Origin: Trichosphaerium sp. ATCC 40318
Taxonomy: Eukaryota; Protista; Tubulinea
NCBI GenBank assembly: GCA_038496445.1
Contig: JALMLS010000450.1
Span: forward strand, 124,001 to 188,000
Reading direction: 5' to 3'
Length of the DNA stretch: 64,000 bases
In this document: piece by piece, positions 3,917 through 49,499 of the stretch
Layout of the letters: each line of letters opens with the position of its first letter
Numbering within the stretch: position 1 is the stretch's first letter
Program-made: the position numbers and the translations under genes
The notes under the pieces: model-generated
The model's database searches: none
What the model was told of the DNA's origin: nothing
Seen by the model: the letters and a program-made list of their open reading frames with translations, nothing else

Positions 3917-4543
3917 CTATCCAACAACATAATAGCTTCCACGTTCTTTGACTTGACGTTCCTCTGGGATACCATTTGTGTAATTTCTCCATTCTATTAT
4001 ATTACCAACAGAATCCCACCTCTTCAGTTCACCATGAATTTCGCCATTTACATAATTACAGACAATGCAATGACGATGTTTCTTCTTCCACCATTGTTCG
4101 TATTTTCCTTCTTTAAGACCATTCTTATAAGTACACTTAGTACTTAACTGCCCTGACGAGAACCATAGCTTGTAACTTCCATGTCTTTTGCCTTCTACAA
4201 AGGAACATTCCTCCATTATTTTTCCGTTTTTATGTAACTCAATAAAACTGCCATCAAGTACGCCATTCAAGAAATAAGCCTTTTTTATAAGATTACCTTT
4301 ATACCAACAGTAGAACTTTCCAGTTTTTTGAAGTGAGTTATTATATCTTGATGTTGTCGCTGTATATCTATTTAATAGTGGCCATACTATATAGCATTGT
4401 TTGTTGAACACTGTAATCATGTAATGAAGCTCAACGGGCAAGTCAAGGATGGTTAGTTTTTCTTCATCTTTTGAGTATGTTTTCTCCTCTGAGGATGTTA
4501 TAAAGGTTAAGTTATTAATGTTGTCATTTGATTTGTTGTTCAT
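3917..4543 (-). CDS. Intronless F-box-like + MORN-variant (MORN_2/YwqK-like) repeat protein
   Basis: TILDLPVELHYMI (F-box-like) then repeats NGVLDGSFIELHKNGK / EGKRHGSYKLWFSSGQ / NGLKEGKYEQWW / NGEIHGELKRWDSVGN; likely ATG at 4543. Confidence 0.8.
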   Translation of the reverse strand: MNNKSNDNINNLTFITSSEEKTYSKDEEKLTILDLPVELHYMITVFNKQCYIVWPLLNRYTATTSRYNNSLQKTGKFYCWYKGNLIKKAYFLNGVLDGSFIELHKNGKIMEECSFVEGKRHGSYKLWFSSGQLSTKCTYKNGLKEGKYEQWWKKKHRHCIVCNYVNGEIHGELKRWDSVGNIIEWRNYTNGIPEERQVKERGSYYVVG

Positions 4544-4881
4544 ATTGACAATGAAAGATATTCTAAAGAAAAAAGTCACGGCTTAACTCAACTTGAGAAT
4601 AAAACCAGAAAATAATTATCAAGAAAAGACGAGTGGCAAATCATACGCGCTCGCGTAAAGTACATCTATCGCTAGGAAAAAATAGCGTAAGTTACATTAA
4701 CCTTACTTCCTTTTCTATTTTGTAGGTGGTTGCTTGTAAATTTACAAAGTGAAGGTGTTTGACACTCAAACGGCGAAGGGTGAAGATTTAGAGTATGTAA
4801 TGACGATCAAAATTGGATACGTATTTTACCCACATTAATTTTTTCTAGCCAATTGATATGCTTATAATTAGTAAGCTGTAG

Positions 4882-13495: not shown

Positions 13496-14211
13496 GATGT
13501 GTTGCTGATGTTGTATTGGTAGGTTGATATTTGGTATTTTTGGTTAGTAGAAAACTTCGAGAAAACTGCGTGTTTTGCGGCAACTTCGGCCGGCTTTGGT
13601 TAATGTCGGCCCAATAACTGCAGTGACAAAACATCCATACAGAATGCGGGACGCTTGACAAAAACCTAAAAATACGAACTACCACAAGTTATTTGGTGGA
13701 GTAAACTGAACGCTGTAGTTTGGTTATCAAGCGTTTTACAAGGTTTCAAGCTTCTTGTTGAGAAAGGGGAGCCTGTGGCTGTTTTTTTTTTGAGCTAGTT
13801 CCTCACGGAGTCTGCTCATGCCGCTTCGCTCAGTTTACGTAAACGTGCACACGTGTTGTGTGACAACATATTTCGGGATTTTCACGACTTGTCACGAAGA
13901 TTTTTTATGAAGAAGCGCTTTTTAACTACCAATAACGTCAACAGTAGACAACAATCGAGAGCTCTAAAACAATTATTTACAATAAAAGGCCAGTGTTGGC
14001 GACCGGCAATTTGAATTAGCTTTTTACGCTTCCACAAACACAAACCTTGCTTCGCTTCTCTTCGCATTACAAAAAAAACACGTGGATGCCTAGGCTTTAA
14101 TGTTATCTAATTCAGCAATACCAGCAACAAAACATGAGCCTTGTAGGAGAAGAGGCAAGTATTTCCTCGGCAATCTACTACTATACTTTCGCAACGTATT
14201 TTATCTAGACT

Positions 14212-14665
14212 ATAGATATACAGCGACAACATCAAGATATAATAACTCACTTCAAAAAACTGGAAAGTTCTACTGTTGGTATAAAGGTAATCTTATAAAG
14301 AAGGCGTATTTCTTGAATGGCGTACTTGATGGCAGTTTTATTGAGTTACATAAAAACGGAAAAATAATGGAGGAATGTTCCTTTGTAGAAGGCAAAAGAC
14401 ATGGAAGTTACAAGCTATGGTTCTCTTCAGGGCAGTTAAGTACTAAGTGTACGTATAAGAATGGTCTTAAAGAAGGAAAATATGAACAATGTGGAAGAAG
14501 AAACATCGTCATTGCATTGTCTGTAATTATGTAAATGGCGAAATTCATGGTGAACTGAAGAGGTGGGATTCTGTTGGTAATATAATAGAATGGAGAAATT
14601 ACACAAATGGTATCCCAGAGGAACGTCAAGTCAAAGAACGTGGAGGCTATTATGTTGTTGGATAG
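14212..14665 (+). pseudogene. 5'-truncated, frameshifted copy of the MORN-repeat gene
   Basis: Near-identical reverse complement of 3917-4373; lacks the F-box part; 1-nt deletion near 14490 (caatgtgg vs caatggtgg). Confidence 0.85.
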
Positions 14666-15069
14666 CAAAAAAAACCACATACTCACAGCAACCAAGCGTA
14701 TTGATAACTTGCAAACTGAGTGTAAAAAATAAAGTCCAAATATTTAACAAGCAGTTGAGATGTTTATTTGCTGTGTCCTATTTATTGTTTGTATCCTATT
14801 TGTTTAAGCATGTGAAAGACGCATACTGCAAAGCCTGGAAAGGAGTCAGAATCGGCAGCAGGCAAACATCATTTGAATTTTTTGCGTGTACTTGAGTTAT
14901 TAGTTGTGTTACCTACTTGATAATGAGTCCGGAAGCGGGTGATCAGTGTGAATGCATAACCGCGTTAGATTTAAGTTAGTTAGCAGTCATGTAGCCACGC
15001 GGATGGAAGTGCCATAGAACAACAAAATAGTAAGAGAAGTGTGAGCCTGGAATATCCAATCACCATGCG

Positions 15070-18028: not shown

Positions 18029-19439
18029 ATGCTACATACTTTAACAAATATACCAAAGTACACGTGACCTTAAATTGTTTTTATTGCCTTTTATTCTATT
18101 GCCACATGTACTGATCGCATTTTGCAGGCCAATCGAGTTGGTTTGTTTACCTACAGAAATATTATTTTGTATTTTATCTGTCTTGGGTAAACGTGATCGT
18201 ATTTCTTCAACGTTCGTATGTAAATTCTTTTCTACAATAATTATAAATCATTTGGGATATTACGAGGTTACTGTGACATCAAAGGAAGACTTTTCAAGAC
18301 TTTCTAAAAGTCCTTTGCTGAAAAACACAAAAGTTATTGTTGACAACCATACGTATACAGTAACTACAGATGACTTCAAGAATATCTCTGGTGTACATCA
18401 CCTAGTGATAGAAGACTTAGTTGAAGTAACAGATACTATGTTAGAACATATTACAGGCATACACTGTCTGGAACTACAGATCACAAGTGCGTCAAAGCTA
18501 ACATGTGGTGGATTTAAATCATTGTCGGGTGTTCATACAATAGACTTGGCTTATGGGCATTTTAAAGATGAATGGATTCAAGGCCTTTGTGACATCCATA
18601 CAGTTGATATTGCTGGTACAACTATATCTGATAAAGGTCTTGCAGCGCTATCTGGAGTTCACAGTATTGACATATCACGTTGCTACAGTATTACAGACAA
18701 AGGCGTTATTGCAAGTTCAGGCTACATACACAAGATAGAGTTAAATGGATGTACAATTACAGATGAAAGTATCAAGGCATTAACAAAGGTACACTCTATA
18801 TCTTTGATGGATTGTACGAATACATCAGATGAGGGCATTAAGTACTTATTAACACACAATCAAAAAACACTTACTATAAACAAAATAGTACTAAACAGTT
18901 GTGTGCAAATATCGAACAACACATTGAAGCTATTGGCTGGAGTACCATGTGTAGAGCTTGTTAATTGCACTCAACTACATGATGATACTCTGTCTTGTTT
19001 AGTAGGTGTACAGCATATTGATTTGTATCTTTGTAAGGCTATAACAAGTGATGGAATACAAAAGCTATCAGGAGTAAAAGTGATTGACATTTCAAAGCTT
19101 GATTGTGTTGACGATAGTACTTTAGCACCACTTGCAGGTGTCCAAACTATTATTCTCACGGATACCAAAATAACAGATAAAGGCCTTGGTTACTTGATAG
19201 GCGTTAAAATCATAATCCTTGATAACTGTGAGTATATCACTGACAAAGGTGTAAATCGTCTTGTTGGTGTTAAGAAGTTATCCTTAGAAGGCTGTTCACA
19301 AATCACAGATAGTGGCGTTGTTAGTCTAACATCCTTAGATCGTATTAATCATCTGTGTACCCAAATTACACAGAAGATGGTTGACTATCTTGTAACAGAA
19401 GATGTGTTTGACGATGAAGGCTTTTGGCCCAAGTTTTAG
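18029..19439 (+). CDS. F-box/leucine-rich repeat protein
   Basis: ATG 18029, one intron about 18058-18128; F-box LVCLPTEILFCILSVL..VCKFF; many GVHxxDxxxxxITDxGxxxL repeats. Confidence 0.9.
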
Positions 19440-37922: not shown

Positions 37923-38606
37923 TTGAACTTTAATCACGTGATTGGAATACACGTTTTAAAGAAATGTGTTAAGCTTGTTTACGAAAAAAAAAGTTCTCGC
38001 CACGCGGGGAATTGTTGCTCCGCGTGATAGCATGTCACAACTGCCAGTTGACTTAGTAATTTTTGCTTCGAAAAATCAACTATGTGTATAACTTACTAGT
38101 GCTACGCTAGCGCTTACCCCACGCTAACAAAAGCGCTCTCGCACCATACAAACACCAAGGCAGGTGTAATAAGGTTAAAACCACCCCAAAACACTACCAA
38201 TGTTGCTGCAGGCTTTGTAAATGCCGCCAGTGTTAAATAAGTAAATAAAAATTTTGGTGTGGGTTATCACGTGGTTTGAAATGGTTGGATTCTCCGACAG
38301 GGGCAGATCACTTCTAAAAGTGGGATTTACAAGGTCTGTCAGACGTGTCAAATCCGTCAGATCTAACAGAGCGGGCAGAAACAGGATTTTTTGTTAACGT
38401 CAGTCTGGCCGAAAATTTGAATGAGAGATAATATTTTGATAAATCCAAGCTATTTCGCTGTATCACGCAAGCGAGTAAAGTACCCTGGTGTTGCCAACAA
38501 AAAAAATATGTAACTTTTTGAAATTGTACAAAAGGATGCAAAGGTGTGTGAGTGAAGGGGAGACATTGATGTTGTCTCTTTTGTGACGTTTATTTACGCA
38601 TTGGAA

Positions 38607-39997
38607 TCATACTTGGTTCCAGAAAGATCCAAAGCACAAAGGATCATTACGACATTCTGGAGTATTCAAGCAAAATACAGCACATTCTCTATTGACACAG
38701 TTTGATGCGAATATGCAAGGGTTGCTCTGTGCAAGTCGGAAACATCTACGTTGACCTCTGCAAGGTACAGTCACTGGTGCTGGGAGTACATTGATTGATG
38801 ATAATGTTGGAGGATCACAGAAAGCAGAGGTGCCTTGTCTAATAAAAAAGGAGTAAGAAGAGTGCAAAGAGGTTGCTACAGTAAAGTACATACGCAGAAG
38901 ATCCTTCATTTGAAAGAATTGGAGAAGCTCCTGAAGCTGTTGTGACCGATGCAGCAATATCATTGGCTTGACCTGCACCTGTGAGGTCGATTGTGATGCT
39001 ACATGAAGCTTGTTGATTTTCAGCCAAAGTGGCATCAAACTGAAGTTCTCCATTTGATACACTTGATGATGTTGTGCCAGAACAAGACAATGACGAAGCA
39101 TCAAGAGAACCAATAGAGCTATCGAATCCAAATGAACCTGATATCATCTCAGTTGAAGCCATTGGAATCCTTTGATAGTTCTCACAAGTGATATCAACAC
39201 TGATCGAATCACCGACTCTTAAGTCGTCAGAACCAATTGGATTGATTGTATGCCTAAACACCAATTAGTTTGACTGTAAAATGACATAAAATAATGATGT
39301 GATTACCAGCAAGAGACAGGCGGTTGACAACAAGCGTATTTGACATGAGCATCAACACTTTGGACATCAGAGCCCAATACGTATTCAACACGATCAACTG
39401 AGTCCAAATCATCGATATTGCTTCCGTAAGGTAAACACACATCCACAGGTGTAGATATTCCTTGAGCGATATTGAAACTGAGTTGAGTGTTGATTGAGGT
39501 TACTGAATTGCGTAAAATGGCAGATACAGTTGTCTGACTATCAGCGCCAACCATGCGAAAGTTGTAGCAGCCTAATATCAAGAAAAAACAAGAATCAGAA
39601 CACATATTTCAAGCGATTTAAAGTGATTGTGACCACACGTACTGCATCCATTCTTCGTCAAGTCTAATGGAGGGCTGATACCGGTGAGTGCCAATCCAGA
39701 GTATACAGAAGAACAAGAACCGACAACAGAGACATCATTGGATAGCCGAAAGCCAAGACCATCAGCGATCTGACATTCTGTAATCAATGCGTTTATTGGT
39801 GCTCCTGATACTCTGTTTGCAGTTAGATCTCTACGACCACCTGCAATTGAGCCATCAAGAGTAGTATCGGTGACTACAGGTGATGAATCGGTTGCAAAAG
39901 TTGTTGCGAAGGCAGTGAAGGGATCAACTTGAGATGCATTGAGAGATACAAGAAACAGTCCAATAAAGAGAAGTACGAGTTGTTGTGTTGTGTACAT
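38607..39997 (-). CDS. Secreted beta-rich protein with Cys-rich C-terminus, copy 1 (four exons)
   Basis: Signal peptide MYTTQQLVLLFIGLFLVSLNA; ORFs 39578-39997, 39303-39605 and 38839-39264 plus last exon ending GSFWNQV*. Confidence 0.85.
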
Positions 39998-41232
39998 GGT
40001 AAACTGATTTATGTTGTTTTATAAACTTTATACCCTTTTTAAATCACATGCACAATAAGGAGGTTTTGCGTGTAAACAAGAGAAAGAGGTGACGACATAT
40101 TTTGTGAAACACAAATAAAAAAAAGGTACATACTTCATAAAAACCTGAGTATTTGCTTGGTTGACTTTGTTTATTCGTTTAATACCTCTATTTTCACAAT
40201 GGGACAACAATGACCGGTTTCAATTCAGTGAAGATGTCACGCGCCTCTTGCCATATTTTTGCTTCTCTATTGCGTATTGCTTTATGCTTTCGGCTTTTTT
40301 ACACATTTGCGCAATGTTTGTACTCAAAAATGCGTTGTACCGTAATATAGCGCTATACTCAGCCCTCAACAACTGCAAAGATATCTTCACTGAACTACTT
40401 GTTTTTATTTGTCCCAATTTTAGACTCGTGCTCCACGAACCTGACGTGGCGCTGAGATACTTACTGCAAACAAAAAACATGTCAGTAGATATCCGTGAGA
40501 GTTCGTGATAAGTTGTACTTGTAACAAATACTTCATGTGAGTTAGAGAATTGTCGTGTTTCTTTGTACTTTCATGTGAAACTTAATTTTTCCGGTATAAA
40601 TGTCCATAAAGTACGCAATAGGTTTCTGTATTGCTACCCAATGTATAGCCAGTAACATGTGCTTATAACAGATTATACTCTCATACTGATAATCTCGAGA
40701 TATCACGTGGGCATAAGAGACAGATAAAAACACAGTATAGTTCAGGAGCAATAAGATGGAAAGTTAAAGCATACATAGCTTGTACATTTACATGTAGTCT
40801 TCCATGTTATACACTCTTTTGAACGCCTTGAATAAACAAGGAACGAACGTGTAAATGTATCATCAAGGTCAGAATACATCTTTAAAGTTCTTCCTCAAAG
40901 ATTTCATACTCGTTCTTTGATAAACAAAATCTGTATTGTACGATTGTATAGTCAGCTACACTTACAGAAAATAACACTTCAACACACGCTCTTTTGTGAC
41001 AAATTGTTAATTCATTGTGACTTTTGTATACTGTTTTGTTATGTTCTGAATGCTACAACCGTAAAGTTTCTCTGTTGTTTTAGTAGGCAATGATCATGAC
41101 ATGGGTCATTGTTACACTATTTCCATCAAAAATCCATTTTTAATACTATTTTACCCTTTTGATGTAATTACTGGGTCCACAATTCACCGTTTCTGCGCCA
41201 CCTCTTATATTCTCCTTCATACTCACGTTTGA

Positions 41233-43808: not shown

Positions 43809-44463
43809 AAATAAATAAATTTACACCGACGAACCAATTAATTTCGTGGCAATTTGGCGGTTGTTTTACTCCTACTTCCGCTAGCCGCTATAGCTTCATA
43901 CATATAAAATCGTGCGAGCGCAACTGTGGTCTTTTACTTCAGAGAAACAAAACAGTGGGTTGCACTACGTTTCGCGGCGTTTCCATTTCTTCGAACTCCG
44001 TTCTTTCTGTGTCGTGAAGTATAGCTAAGACTTCAAGACTAGTTGTAACGGTGGAAAGGTAAGGAGAAATCTGTAATTCAATAAAAAAATGAGTTTTCAT
44101 ACAAGGTCAACGTTAGAGATGGCAGAAATACCGGTCCGTAAACGGTCCAAACGGTCTGCTGTTGAAGAATAACGTCCTATTTGGTGATTTCGTGGTGGAA
44201 GATTGTCTCAAAGTTATTTGTCCAATCTTCTAGGAGGGCGACCAGTAGATCCGTTGTTTTGGATTTATGTATACTGCTAATAAATCTTTTTGATCGGTCT
44301 GAGTTAGTGATGAAACCTGCTGACATCTCGACCATGTTCTTTAGGTTCGTCTTGAATGTACTCATTCTGATCTTAAGTCCCTTGGAAGTTTTTGATTTAA
44401 TCCGTTCGATAGTTCATTTTTTCGCGTGCTGTTTTGTTTACAGTGACAACATCGCTAGGTATT

Positions 44464-46373
44464 ATGGCGCGTACAAAACAGACAACTAGAAGACGAAATG
44501 GTGGAGTGGCTCCTAGATGGAATAACAAGAAAAGAACACCAAAACTGCCACAGGCTCCAGTAAAGAAAGTACCGCTCAATGTACGCGAATATAAAACCTT
44601 TTAAAGCATCAAAACTGTATTTTAATTCATCTTCAGCCAAATTCCTTTACATTCACTTCATTCGGCGATGTACAACTTGGTGGACTACCTGTAGAGATAT
44701 GGGCTATGATTTGTAAGTTCAGATTGTAAAACGTTACATGTTTGCTAAACACATTGTTAGGTTCATATATTCAAGAACCATCAGCTTCAAGCTGTATTTT
44801 ACGCATCAACACGATCATTTACGCTATTGCACTTGAAAATGTTAACTGGAAGAGCGTTTATTTTAACACATTCATTGACGCACTGTTTGAACAAGGCGAG
44901 GCAGTGTGACAGTGCTAAGCTTGTTTTGGCTCATCTTGTTTCGCAGATTGCTTGACGTCTCCCTCGCCAGTTCCACCATTCGTATACCCTTCTTTTGTTG
45001 GAAAGAACTGCTGGTACAACCGTCTCGTTCATCGCGCAAACTTGGGTAAACCATTGGCCGAACGTGAGTGCTCAGTTTGGCAAGGCAGGAAGGTACGTTG
45101 TTGAATGATCTTTAATTCATTTTAACTCCTTTAGTTTGTACCTGATATTGCTGATGATGGTTGTGGTACATTTTCATGTTTGATAGGGCCCACAGGCATA
45201 CCTTTATTCTGTAAGATGGAATACGGGACATGTGAATATGAAGATATTGGAAGCGCTAGTGTTTATGATTTCAATGAAAAGAAATACAAGGTACAGATTG
45301 CAGTTGTTCACCATATCCGTACTAATCTAGTTACCAGAAATTTATTGTTGCATACCATAATAGGTCTGATGAAACGGGTACAGCCATTCTGGCTTTAAGC
45401 TTTACTGTGGCGAGATTAATCTTTGGTAATCAACATGTTTCTTATATTTTTCTAACTTTTTTGTCACCTACAGGTTGGGGGTACAATGAGTATATGTCTA
45501 GTTGGCCTGTTATACGTGACTATGCAGAAAAGCTACTAGACGATATTTTTGAAGATTTAAGACCCAACTGCGGAGGAGGATGTTGTATGATTGGTTCTGG
45601 GTGCAATCTTTTTCGTGGTTTTACTATTGTAGATTTATTTTGACGTTTTTCTCAGAAAGCCTGTTCGTTTCAAGATGTATGAACATGAAGACGATTATGC
45701 AACAGGTGTAAAGCCCATACCAAATACATTATTAGATAGATATGATATGTATGGGAAATACATTGCATACTATAGCATTTACTCAGTATGGAACTTATTT
45801 GATAGCCGGTCATCGTAAGATTTTTTTGTTATTGCTTTATTTTAGGGCTAACAAGCTTCCTTTAGGTTTTACAGATGCATTGATAACCCCAATATAGTTG
45901 TTAATAACCCTAGAATGTATTATAGTACTCATAAACCTCCACTACCAGTTGTACCTGAAGAATGTGACAATATGGATGATAAACTTATAATTCTCAAAGA
46001 AAATGGTACTAAACTTGTTCTGATGTTTCGATGCTTCTTGGTCTTTTTGACTTTATTTCAAGGAAAACATTCGGTTGTTATTGATGACCTAGTGGAAGTG
46101 AAGCGTATAATAACACAAGCAAGGAATCAAGAAGGAGGACAGAATAATATTTGTAGTTTTCTTGCAAAGCAATCTATGTCTGTGTTTCACCAATTTGGCT
46201 CAAGTGAATTTGATTACCGTGAATTCATTACAGAATTTCCAAATCATGCTATACCTGGTAAGATTTCTCTTCTCACAAAGTATGAAGGAGATCATATCCC
46301 ACCTCAGGACAGCGTGATAAACGAAAAAGATAAGCACTTGAAAAAATCATTTGAAAACACAATAAATTTCTAG
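44464..46373 (+). CDS. F-box protein with N-terminal histone H3 tail-like peptide
   Basis: Exon 1 MARTKQTTRRRNGGVAPRWNNKKRTPKLPQAPVKKVPLN, intron 44581-44636, then LGGLPVEIWAMICSYI (F-box); further exons join ORFs 45180, 45407 and 45915. Confidence 0.8.
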
Positions 46374-47280
46374 CACTTTTCCATCCAATCACTTTGTTAA
46401 TAGTTGGACTCTAATTTTTTTATCACCCTCACTGGTGAACAAAGCCATGGTAGTATTTATTCCTGTACAATAAACGCCTGAAGCAACATAAATGCGATTT
46501 GCGTCACAGCACGTAAATGTATGCTTTAACTTTCCTTCTTGTTGCTCCTGAACTATACTGTGTTTATCTGTATGCCACGTGATATCTCGAGATTATCTAC
46601 ATAAAAATACAAGCTGCATATATGGCACATATTACTGGCTACATTGATAGCAACACAGAAACCTATTGCATACTTTATGGACATTGGTACCGGAAAAATT
46701 ATGTTTCACATGAAAGTACAAAGAAACACGACAATTCTCTAACTCACATGTATTTGTTACAAGTACAACTTATCACGAACTCCCACGGATATCTACTAAC
46801 ATGCTTTTTGTTTCCAGTAAGTGTCTCAGCGTCACAGAGGCTTCGTGGAGCAGGAGTCTAAAATTGGGACAAATAAAAACAAGTAGTTCAGTGAAGATAT
46901 CTTTGCAGTTGTTGAAGGCTGAGTATAGCGCTATATTATGGTACAATGTATTTTTGAGTATAAACGTTGCACAAAATTAGTAGAAAACTCTAAAGCAATA
47001 CGCAATAGAGAAGTAAAAATATTGGCAAGAGGCGCGTGACATCTTCACTGAATTGAAACTTGTCATTGCCGCCCATAGTGAAAATAGAGGTATTAAACGA
47101 ATAAACAAAGTCAATCAAGCAAATACTCAGGTTTTTATGAAGTACGTACCTTTTTTTTTTATTTGTGTTTCACAAAATATGTCGTCACCTCTTTCTCTTG
47201 TTTACACGCAAAACCTCCTTATTGTGCATGTGATTTTAAAAGGGGACTAAAGTTTATAAAACAACATAAATCAGTTTACC

Positions 47281-48688
47281 ATGTACACAACACAACAACT
47301 CGTACTTCTCTTTATTGGACTGTTTCTTGTATCTCTCAATGCATCTCAAGTTGATCCCTTCACTGCCTTTGCAACAACTTTTGCAACCGATTCATCACCT
47401 GTAGTCACCGAGACTACTCTTGATGGCTCAATTGTAGGTGGTCGTAGAGATCTAACTGCAAACAGAGTATCAGGAGCACCAATAAACGCATTGATTACAG
47501 AATGTCAGATCGCTGATGGTCTTGGCTTTCGGCTATCCAATGATGTCTCTGTTGTCGGTTCTTGTTCTTCTGTATACTCTGGATTGGATCTCACCGGTAT
47601 CAGCCCTCCATTAGACTTGACTCAGAATGGATGCAGTACGTGTGGCCACAATCACTTTAAATCGCTTGAAATATGTGTTCTGATTCTTGTTTTTTCTTGA
47701 TATTAGGCTGCTACAATTTTCGCATGGTTGGCGCTGATAGTCAGACAACTGTATCTGCTATTTTACGCAATTCAGCAACCTCAATCAACACTCAACTCAG
47801 TTTCAATATCGCTCAAGGAATATCTACACCTGTGGATGTGTGTTTACCTTACGGAAGCAATATCGATGATTTGAACTCAGTTGATCGTGTTGAATACGTA
47901 TTGGGCTCTGATATCCAAAGTGTTGATGCTCATGTCAAATACGCTTGTTGTCAACCGCCTGTCTCTTGCTGGTAATCACATCATTATTTTTATTTAAGTT
48001 CATATCTTACAGTCAAACTAATTGGTGTTTAGGCATACAATCAATCCAATTGGTTCTGCTGCCATTGACGACTTGAAAGTCGGTGATTCAATCAGTGTTG
48101 ATATCACTTGTGAGAACTATCAAAGGATTCCAATGGCTTCAACCGAAATGATATCGGGTTCATTTGGATTCGATAGCTCTATTGGATCTCTTGATGCTTC
48201 GTCATTGTCTTGTTCTGGCACAACATCATCAAGTGTATCAAATGGAGAACTTCAGTTTGATGCGACTTTGGCTGAAAATCAACAAGCTTCATGTAGCATC
48301 ACAGTCGACCTCACAGGTGCAGGCCAAGCCAATGATATTGCTGCATTGATCACAACAGCTTCAGGAGCTTCTCCAATTCTTTCAAATGAAGGATCTTCTG
48401 CGTATGTACTTTACTGTAGCAACCTCTTTGCACTCTTCTTACTCCTTTTTTATTAGACAAGGCACCTCTGCTTTCTGTGATCCTCCAACATTATCATCAA
48501 TCAATGTACTCCCAGCACCAGTGACTGTACCTTGCAGAGGTCAACGTAGATGTTTCCGACTTGCACAGAGCAACCCTTGCATATTCGCATCAAACTGTGT
48601 CAACAGAGAATGTGCTGTATTTTGCTTGAATACTCCAGAATGTCGTAATGATCCTTTGTGCTTTGGATCTTTCTGGAACCAAGTATAA
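47281..48688 (+). CDS. Secreted beta-rich protein, copy 2
   Basis: Nearly identical to 38607-39997 (a few substitutions, 3-aa insertion AAI). Confidence 0.85.
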
Positions 48689-49499
48689 TTCCAATGCGTA
48701 AATAAACGTCACAAAAGAGACAACATCAATGTCTCCCCTTCACTCACACCTTTGCATCCTTTTTGTACGTTTCTAAAAGTTACATTTTTTTTGTTGGCAA
48801 CACCAGGGTACTTTACTTGCTTGAGTGATAAAGCGAAATAGCTAGGATTTATCAAAATATTTTCTGTCAGGAGCGAGGGCAGATAACATCTAAAGTGGGA
48901 TTTGCAAGGTCGGCCAGACGTGTTAAATCCGTCAGATCTAACAGAGCGGGCAGAAACTGGTTTTATTTGGAAAAGTGTGGCTGAAAATTTGAATGAAACC
49001 GTTTCAAACCACGTGGCACCAAAATTTTTATTTACATATTTAACACCAGCGGCGTTTACAAAGCCTGCAGCAACATTGGTAGTGTTTTGGAGGTTTTAAC
49101 CTTATTACACCTGTCTTGGTGTTTGGATGCTGCGAGAGCGCTTTTGTTAGCGTGGGTAGGCGCTAGCGTAGCACTAGTAAGTTATACACGTACGTTGATT
49201 TATTGAAGCAAAAATTAGAGCAAACAGTGTTTGAGGCATTCATACCATCTTTGCCGGCAATGCGATAGCCTTATAGGGCATCATACCTTTTTTAATTCGC
49301 TTTTAGCTCATTGAATACTTCCATGGTTTGCTCGTACCGAGTACAGTGTGCGTAAACACTGTGATCATCTTCTATGGTCTATTGTTCTAAATTTTGTTGT
49401 CCCTTTTGGACGAGATGGTTCACATTGTGGGAGATCTACACCTTAAACAAAGTGTTCATTTCTTTAAAACGTGTACTGCAATCACGTGATTAAAGTTCA

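What the first reader, a model, noticed from the sequence alone, without database searches (positions are those of the whole stretch)
44464..46373. F-box protein that begins with a histone H3 tail mimic
Seen: exon 1 encodes MARTKQTTRRRNGGVAPR...APVKKVP versus H3 MARTKQTARKSTGGKAPR...GGVKKPH, 13 of the first 18 residues identical. It splices in frame to an F-box (LPVEIWAMI) and there is no histone fold. R2/T3/K4 and a VKK (K36-like) motif are kept, while K9, S10 and K14 are replaced. The ORF track misses it. Established: PHD and other readers and SET1/LSD1 recognise the free ARTKQ N-terminus; histone mimicry is known from influenza NS1 and G9a; F-boxes recruit SCF ligases. Inference: an SCF adaptor that uses an H3K4 decoy to capture chromatin readers/writers for ubiquitylation or to reach chromatin. 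A co-opted nuclear localisation signal is the simpler alternative.
Basis: partly seen in the sequence, partly recalled or inferred. Interest (0 to 1): 0.85.

Follow-up and report, generated by a model that had tools for sequence, protein, structure and literature searches.

The report
Histone H3 tail on F-box-like protein
A predicted ten-exon gene of an unnamed microbial eukaryote opens with a worn but unmistakable copy of the histone H3 tail and has no histone fold; the tail likely heads a divergent ubiquitin-ligase adaptor (F-box protein) and would carry it into the nucleus and dock it on chromatin-reading proteins, but no relative or transcript was found to test this.

Summary
The ATG at 44464 opens a peptide matching 13 of the first 18 H3 residues; the next best of 2,160 ATGs in the window reaches 6. 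A ten-exon, 484-residue model is supported by coding statistics and has no histone fold. With an equally good splice donor (44569), exon 1 aligns to the whole H3 tail through the K36 motif. ARTKQT is intact; K9, K14 and K18 are lost; a classical bipartite import pattern is present. The F-box is likely, not proven: its first helix is significant, its second half is not, and Pfam could not be run on the spliced form. No homologue was found. An upstream exon that would bury the tip cannot be excluded. Best reading: a nuclear SCF-type adaptor tethered by an H3K4-type mimic; docking is more likely than substrate capture. Unchecked scan notes report H3-tail/F-box fusions on other DNA (Podospora, a foraminifer-type protist). 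No paper searched describes the fusion.

The parts
44464..44517 (+). H3-tail copy, residues 1-18 with Met: ARTKQT tip, R8 and GG-APR kept; A7, K9, S10, T11, K14, K18 changed
   Evidence: 13/18 identity, controls; PDB H3 hits
44488..44541 (+). Classical bipartite import pattern (basic pair, 10-12 residue spacer, 3 of 5 basic) overlapping the tail copy
   Evidence: present here, in 1 of 23 H3 tails, and in 29% of shuffles of exon 1; consensus from PMC3121794 passages
44464..44580 (+). Exon 1 (39 codons; ends at 44568 with the alternative donor, giving the K36-like VKK followed by P)
44581..44636 (+). Intron 1, GT-AG, 56 nt (alternative 44569-44636, 68 nt)
   Evidence: donor scores 7.5 vs 8.2 on an independent matrix, 6.7 vs 2.5 on the gene's own introns
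44637..44712 (+). Exon 2, first half of the F-box-like motif (LPVEIW at 44685)
44761..44895 (+). Exon 3, second half of the F-box-like motif; followed by a predicted GC-AG intron 44896-44946
   Evidence: the weakest exon by coding score and the weakest splice pair
44947..46373 (+). Exons 4-10 (44947-45092, 45135-45290, 45338-45425, 45474-45600, 45656-45814, 45866-46005, 46063-46373): orphan body of about 390 residues, stop TAG at 46371
   Evidence: open model; coding score; no family or homologue
44358..44443 (+). Possible upstream intron: 44358-44443 would be untranslated; 44358-44412 would join an ATG at 44310 or 44334 in frame and add 25-33 residues before the tip

Best explanation
The gene begins with a copy of the histone H3 tail that is predicted to be spliced onto a likely F-box adaptor, and the leader would both import the protein into the nucleus and, through its intact ARTKQT tip, tether it to H3K4-reading chromatin complexes. 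Shown in the sequence: H3 likeness of residues 1-18, absence of a histone fold, intact tip with a small residue after the Met, loss of K9/K14/K18, a bipartite basic pattern. Predicted: the ten-exon structure and the start at 44464. Inferred: capture of the 5' end of an H3 gene (possibly the whole tail to the K36 motif); Met removal leaving a free Ala1; importin-alpha import; binding of the tip by PHD-type readers or K4 methyltransferases; Skp1 binding by the F-box; substrate choice by the orphan C-terminal body rather than by the tail.
For: 13/18 identity far above chance. The six changes spare the first six residues (p 0.05 if random) and include all three lysines K9, K14, K18 (p 0.025), both post hoc. 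Tip fits iM-Z-R-X-K, a class enriched in chromatin-binding proteins whose 7 tested peptides bound K4me3 readers in vitro (PMC8166343). PAF15 shows that an H3-like N-terminus binds a PHD finger as tightly as H3 does (PMC7060239 passages). F-box: whole-profile score 20.6, 0 of 1000 shuffles, z 6.0, against 7.5 unspliced; 13 of 36 gapless identities with L123, which passes Pfam F-box-like; position at residues 53-97. Model frame +35.7 bits against -331 and -171. The window holds another F-box gene (Pfam E 5e-5).
Against: No homologue, so selection on the tip is untested. The intact tip is partly how the gene was noticed, and MARTKQT alone begins 26 of 57 fetched frames with no histone fold. F-box HMM score only 1.6 bits with 19 of 2000 shuffles as high when W-pattern seeds are left out; second half not significant (91 and 63 of 1000; 413 of 2000); its score lies inside the range of 34 pattern-matching Pfam-negative peptides (11-26). 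A spliced upstream extension scores within the range of the gene's own introns and is matched by only 2 of 1000, 75 of 2000 and 132 of 2000 controls. The H3TM paper found no direct in vivo K4me3 on its proteins.
Confidence: 0.4

Rival explanations
1. The H3 piece was captured as a ready-made basic leader and now works only as a nuclear import signal; the ARTKQT tip is a passenger that has not yet decayed.
For: The changes at K9, S10 and residues 19-23 build a classical bipartite pattern absent from 22 of 23 H3 tails. Exon 1 has net charge +12 against -12 for the rest. The sparing of the tip is only p 0.05 and biased by how the gene was found.
Against: 29% of shuffles of exon 1 also show the pattern. 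K14, the lysine held by the first Kap123 pocket, is valine, so the H3-type import signal itself is damaged (PMC5677370 passages). A classical signal does not need ARTKQT or GG-APR (own knowledge), yet both are intact beside six changed positions.
Confidence: 0.3
2. Translation starts upstream (ATG 44310 or 44334, intron 44358-44412), so the H3 copy is internal and cannot act as a free H3 N-terminus.
For: 13 one-intron extensions stay open into the motif; one has a GTA donor and scores 12.6 on the gene's own matrix (2 of 1000 controls) and 7.5 on an independent one (75 of 2000 and 132 of 2000 controls).
Against: The better acceptor for that donor is 44443 (12.2), which gives a stop or an untranslated intron. 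The added segments score negative as coding (-3.9, -5.3) and would be Phe-rich. The similarity starts exactly at a Met with A at -3 and G at +4. An antisense 62-codon frame overlaps the proposed exon.
Confidence: 0.12
3. The fusion is a recent accident in a duplication-rich region and is decaying or neutral; the F-box-like segment may no longer bind Skp1.
For: The gene lies between 2.7-kb inverted duplicates, and much of the window is duplicated. No homologue. F-box second half weak.
Against: A 484-codon frame stays open across nine short introns with coding-like statistics, best of three frames in 9 of 10 exons. At least nine amino-acid-changing base changes in H3 residues 7-18 with no stop or frameshift (codons, counted by eye).
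Confidence: 0.1
4. One reading: the tail is the substrate bait, capturing H3K4 readers or writers for SCF ubiquitylation.
For: About 35 flexible residues separate the tail copy from the F-box, enough to bring a bound protein near the ligase (inference). Unchecked scan notes report the same pairing in other lineages.
Against: F-box proteins usually bind substrates through the region after the F-box (own knowledge), and about 390 residues are present there. No test of binding or turnover was possible.
Confidence: 0.08

Closest known systems
H3 N-terminal mimicry proteins (H3TMs; VRK1, BCL11B, TSHZ1, PCLAF and others; Chen et al. 2021, PMC8166343)
   Same: Non-histone protein starting iM-small-R-X-K; predicted Met removal and free N-terminus.
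   Different: The H3TM definition covers four residues; here the likeness runs 18 residues and perhaps the whole tail, pointing to capture of an H3 gene piece. No 'F-box' or 'FBX' occurs in the paper's main text or its two held supplementary files.
PAF15/PCLAF (Nishiyama et al. 2020, PMC7060239)
   Same: H3-like extreme N-terminus on a non-histone protein, bound by a PHD finger, linked to ubiquitylation.
   Different: PAF15 is the substrate of the ligase UHRF1; here the mimic sits on a likely ligase adaptor.
Histone H3 import signal bound by Kap123 (An et al. 2017, PMC5677370)
   Same: Same region of H3, basic, plausible import role.
   Different: K14 is valine and K23 aligns to arginine; the pattern present is the classical bipartite type instead.
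F-box proteins (Pfam PF00646, PF12937)
   Same: LPxE-type first helix near the N-terminus, profile spacing to the closing Trp kept, gapless match to one Pfam-positive F-box.
   Different: Scores below most Pfam-positive examples; C-terminal body matches no family.

Membership tests
H3TM (PMC8166343) | Sequence iM-Z-R-X-K with Z one of seven small residues | tested here: met
   M-A-R-T-K at 44464 (definition)
H3TM (PMC8166343) | Motif at the true N-terminus | tested here: inconclusive
   No unspliced in-frame upstream ATG reaches it, but a spliced extension is not excluded
H3TM (PMC8166343) | Not a histone H3 variant | tested here: met
   No H3 body in three frames of 44569-46400, best -0.5 bits; no Pfam histone hit
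H3TM (PMC8166343) | Binds H3K4 readers; K4 can be methylated | not testable with these tools
   needs peptide binding and mass spectrometry
F-box protein | Reaches Pfam PF00646/PF12937 cut-off | tested here: inconclusive
   No hit on single exons or on the intron-containing frame; the motif is split by intron 2 and the spliced form could not be scanned against Pfam
F-box protein | Full-length match to an F-box profile | tested here: inconclusive
   Whole profile z 6.0-7.8, 0 of 1000 shuffles; second half alone p 0.06-0.2; HMM 1.6 and 7.5 bits
F-box protein | Three-helix fold and Skp1 binding | tested here: inconclusive
   Single-sequence model of the intron-containing frame had pLDDT 32.6; Skp1 complex not run
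Classical bipartite NLS | (K/R)2-X10-(K/R) three of five | tested here: met
   weak, 29% of exon-1 shuffles also match
Kap123-type H3 NLS | small-K-small, six or more residues, then K (H3 K14 and K23) | tested here: not met
   G-V-A at the K14 position

The most novel reading that the evidence does not exclude
This is an independent instance of a recurring, undescribed class of SCF adaptors in microbial eukaryotes that carry a captured H3 tail stripped of K9, K14, K18 and K27 but keeping K4 and the K36 motif, and use it as bait or tether so that H3K4 readers and writers are brought to the ubiquitin system, with K4 methylation of the adaptor acting as the switch.
Probability: 0.18. Interest if true: 0.85.

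Novelty: new variant of a known kind. Interest (0 to 1): 0.5.

Why it matters
Cellular histone mimics in print are mostly four-residue motifs. A gene-derived, 18-38 residue H3 tail on a likely ubiquitin-ligase adaptor would link the histone code directly to protein turnover and give a simple test: a short peptide, with and without K4 methylation, in pull-downs.

Tried and rejected
No whole genome is held. No RNA holder was listed. Protein homologue searches gave none: last exons, longer proteins; exons 6-7, longer; exons 2-10 frame, 317-1012 residues, 3,489 candidates. The search of 1.84 billion representatives with exon 1 gave 2 hits, both repetitive proteins not matching the H3 tip, rejected as chance; it did not even reach H3, so it is insensitive for this query. 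Related-locus scans found none (viral; metagenome). ESM Atlas gave only weak leads, histone clusters at 0.83 and 0.78 for exon 1 and nothing for exons 6-7. PDB and NCBIfam gave nothing for the body. Both structure models were unusable (pLDDT 32.6 and 38.6), so no fold search was run. A pattern for an H3 tip 110-170 nt before an F-box start found 1 metagenome match, out of frame, and 0 viral; this pattern cannot see most intron-containing or differently spaced cases, including this gene. The bacterial promoter scan is irrelevant to a eukaryote. A broken H3 gene was rejected. Complex prediction was not used: the F-box is split by an intron and no Skp1 or reader of this organism was at hand. Literature searches with F-box terms, with 'histone mimicry, ubiquitin ligase, ARTK' and with protist terms listed 0, 3, 4, 1 and 1 papers, none on such a fusion by title and abstract start; the library lacks most subscription papers and bioRxiv supplements were closed.

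Full report
Setting. The window is AT-rich (33-41% GC per 2 kb), eukaryotic, with short introns; no whole genome is held. It carries a Ras gene, a fucosyltransferase, an F-box/LRR gene and a MORN-repeat gene and many internal duplications; the gene in question lies between inverted copies at 38057-40776 and 46517-49217, 91% alike, and has no second copy in the window. The lineage was not determined.

The H3 likeness. The ATG at 44464 opens a peptide that equals the majority of 23 distinct H3 tails at 13 of 18 positions; those 23 came from 28 fold-bearing matches among 120 loci. The next best of 2,160 ATGs in the window reaches 6, and the best of 86,329 ATGs in 40 simulated windows reaches 8. 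In PDB, 59 of the 60 best matches shown are H3 or H3-tailed chains. The seven-residue start is not itself the evidence: 26 of 57 fetched frames starting MARTKQT have neither further likeness nor a histone fold, many of them redundant phage-like proteins. The GG-APR block in register is what makes the match real. No H3 body follows in any of three frames. Of 29 fetched frames with 12 or more identities, 26 have a histone fold, 1 is cut by its contig end and 2 (L075, L121) have none, so H3 tails on non-histone frames occur elsewhere.

Gene model. Nine introns of 42-57 nt, eight GT-AG and one GC-AG, give an open frame of 484 codons ending at 46373. A three-periodic model trained on four other frames of the window scores the modelled frame +35.7 bits against -331 and -171; it is the best of three frames in 9 of 10 exons, exon 3 being the exception, and five exons score slightly negative. 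Introns 3 and 7 are the least certain. All 4 in-frame choices for intron 1 keep the tip. With 44569 the tail profile aligns through position 39 and the distal part scores p 0.0065; with 44581 it aligns to about 20-26 and the distal part is at chance, p 0.92. So exon 1 may be the entire H3 tail with a three-residue deletion; this is one donor of four, chosen afterwards.

The start. No unspliced in-frame upstream ATG reaches the motif and the context has A at -3 and G at +4. Against this, 13 one-intron extensions stay open into it. One, 44358-44412, scores 12.6 on the gene's own matrix, reached by 2 of 1000 resampled upstream regions, and 7.5 on the independent matrix, reached by 75 of 2000 resamples and 132 of 2000 real window segments; upstream of four other starts the best values were 3.7 or less. 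The same donor pairs better with acceptor 44443 (12.2), which would be an untranslated intron. The added exon pieces score negative as coding. I put a buried tip at about 12%.

The F-box. Pfam finds nothing on single exons or on the frame read across intron 2; the motif is split by that intron. I therefore collected 95 stop-free pattern matches from viral and bacterial contigs, of which 61 reach a Pfam F-box cut-off; the 34 others were left out of the profiles and used as a negative set. A profile of 54 of the 61, leaving out 7 picked by a pattern sharing the query's Trp, gives the spliced model only 1.6 bits (19 of 2000 shuffles as high); with all 61 it gives 7.5 bits (0 of 2000). Scored over the full profile length the model gets 20.6 (0 of 1000 shuffles, z 6.0) at residues 53-97, against 7.5 unspliced; held-out F-boxes get 17-40 and the Pfam-negative set 11-26. 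Shuffling only the second half gives p 0.09 and 0.06 and 0.21 pairwise. One Pfam-positive F-box, L123 (26.2 bits), matches without gaps at 13 of 36 positions, picked by eye from 64. Verdict: likely a divergent F-box, about 75%. The remaining 390 residues match no family, structure or protein searched.

What the changes say. Six of H3 residues 1-18 differ. None lies in residues 1-6 (p 0.05) and they include K9, K14 and K18 (p 0.025); both are post hoc and the first is biased by discovery. K14 is the lysine held by the first Kap123 pocket, and K14A or K14Q weakens binding (PMC5677370, passages), so the H3-type import signal is damaged. A classical bipartite pattern (consensus from PMC3121794, passages) is present instead; only 1 of 23 H3 tails has it, but 29% of shuffles of this basic exon do. 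The tip fits the H3TM definition; all seven H3TM peptides tested bound K4me3 readers in vitro, three were methylated in vitro, and no in vivo K4me3 was found (PMC8166343: abstract, introduction, part of methods, section 12, passages and a term search of two supplementary files). PAF15's H3-like N-terminus binds the UHRF1 PHD finger at 2.2 uM against 1.5 uM for H3 (PMC7060239, passages).

Mechanism. Most likely the 5' end of an H3 gene was captured as first exon of an F-box-type gene; the leader now would import the protein and its free tip would dock on H3K4-reading complexes, while the orphan body would pick substrates (0.40). Import only (0.30), a buried tip (0.12), a neutral relic (0.10) and the tail as substrate bait (0.08) are the rivals. 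Every functional step is inferred.

Novelty. Histone mimicry and H3TMs are known. Five searches (listings only) showed no paper on an H3 tail fused to an F-box; the library is incomplete. Unchecked scan notes describe the same pairing in Podospora and a foraminifer-type protist and H3 tails on other scaffolds; I could not confirm them, my one pattern scan for such fusions found none in frame, and no look-alike of this gene is in the notes. I file it as a new variant of a known kind, interest 0.5: real and striking, but an orphan without transcript, with a divergent F-box and an ordinary rival.

Noticed in passing
window 18045-19439 +: Single-exon F-box-like plus leucine-rich-repeat gene (Pfam F-box-like E 5.2e-5, just under the cut-off).
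   Followed up: partly
window 3917-4582 - and 14094-14836 +: MORN-repeat gene with an LPVE-type F-box-like head not recognised by Pfam, and a 98% identical partial inverted copy.
   Followed up: partly
window 44365-43942 -: Divergent antisense frames just upstream of the gene: a 62-codon ORF and two further protein-like pieces, one joined by a possible 32-nt intron; no family hit, negative coding scores; may be a small or broken gene.
   Followed up: partly
window 38057-40776 and 46517-49217: 2.7-kb inverted duplication, 91% identical, of a secreted-type gene, flanking the gene studied and its neighbour.
   Followed up: no
window 44581-46062: 6 of the 9 modelled introns have lengths divisible by three (p 0.04); two of them hold no in-frame stop.
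   Followed up: partly
L075 2001-2435 +: 145-residue frame on a giant-virus-bin contig with an 18/18 H3 tail, no histone fold, no Pfam family, basic C-terminus; cluster of 8 members keeps the tail.
   Followed up: partly
L121 1467-1916 -: 149-residue frame with a 17/18 H3 tail and no histone fold or Pfam family.
   Followed up: partly
L079 1283-2020 -: SWIB/MDM2-domain protein on a viral contig that starts MARTKQT, with no further H3 likeness.
   Followed up: partly
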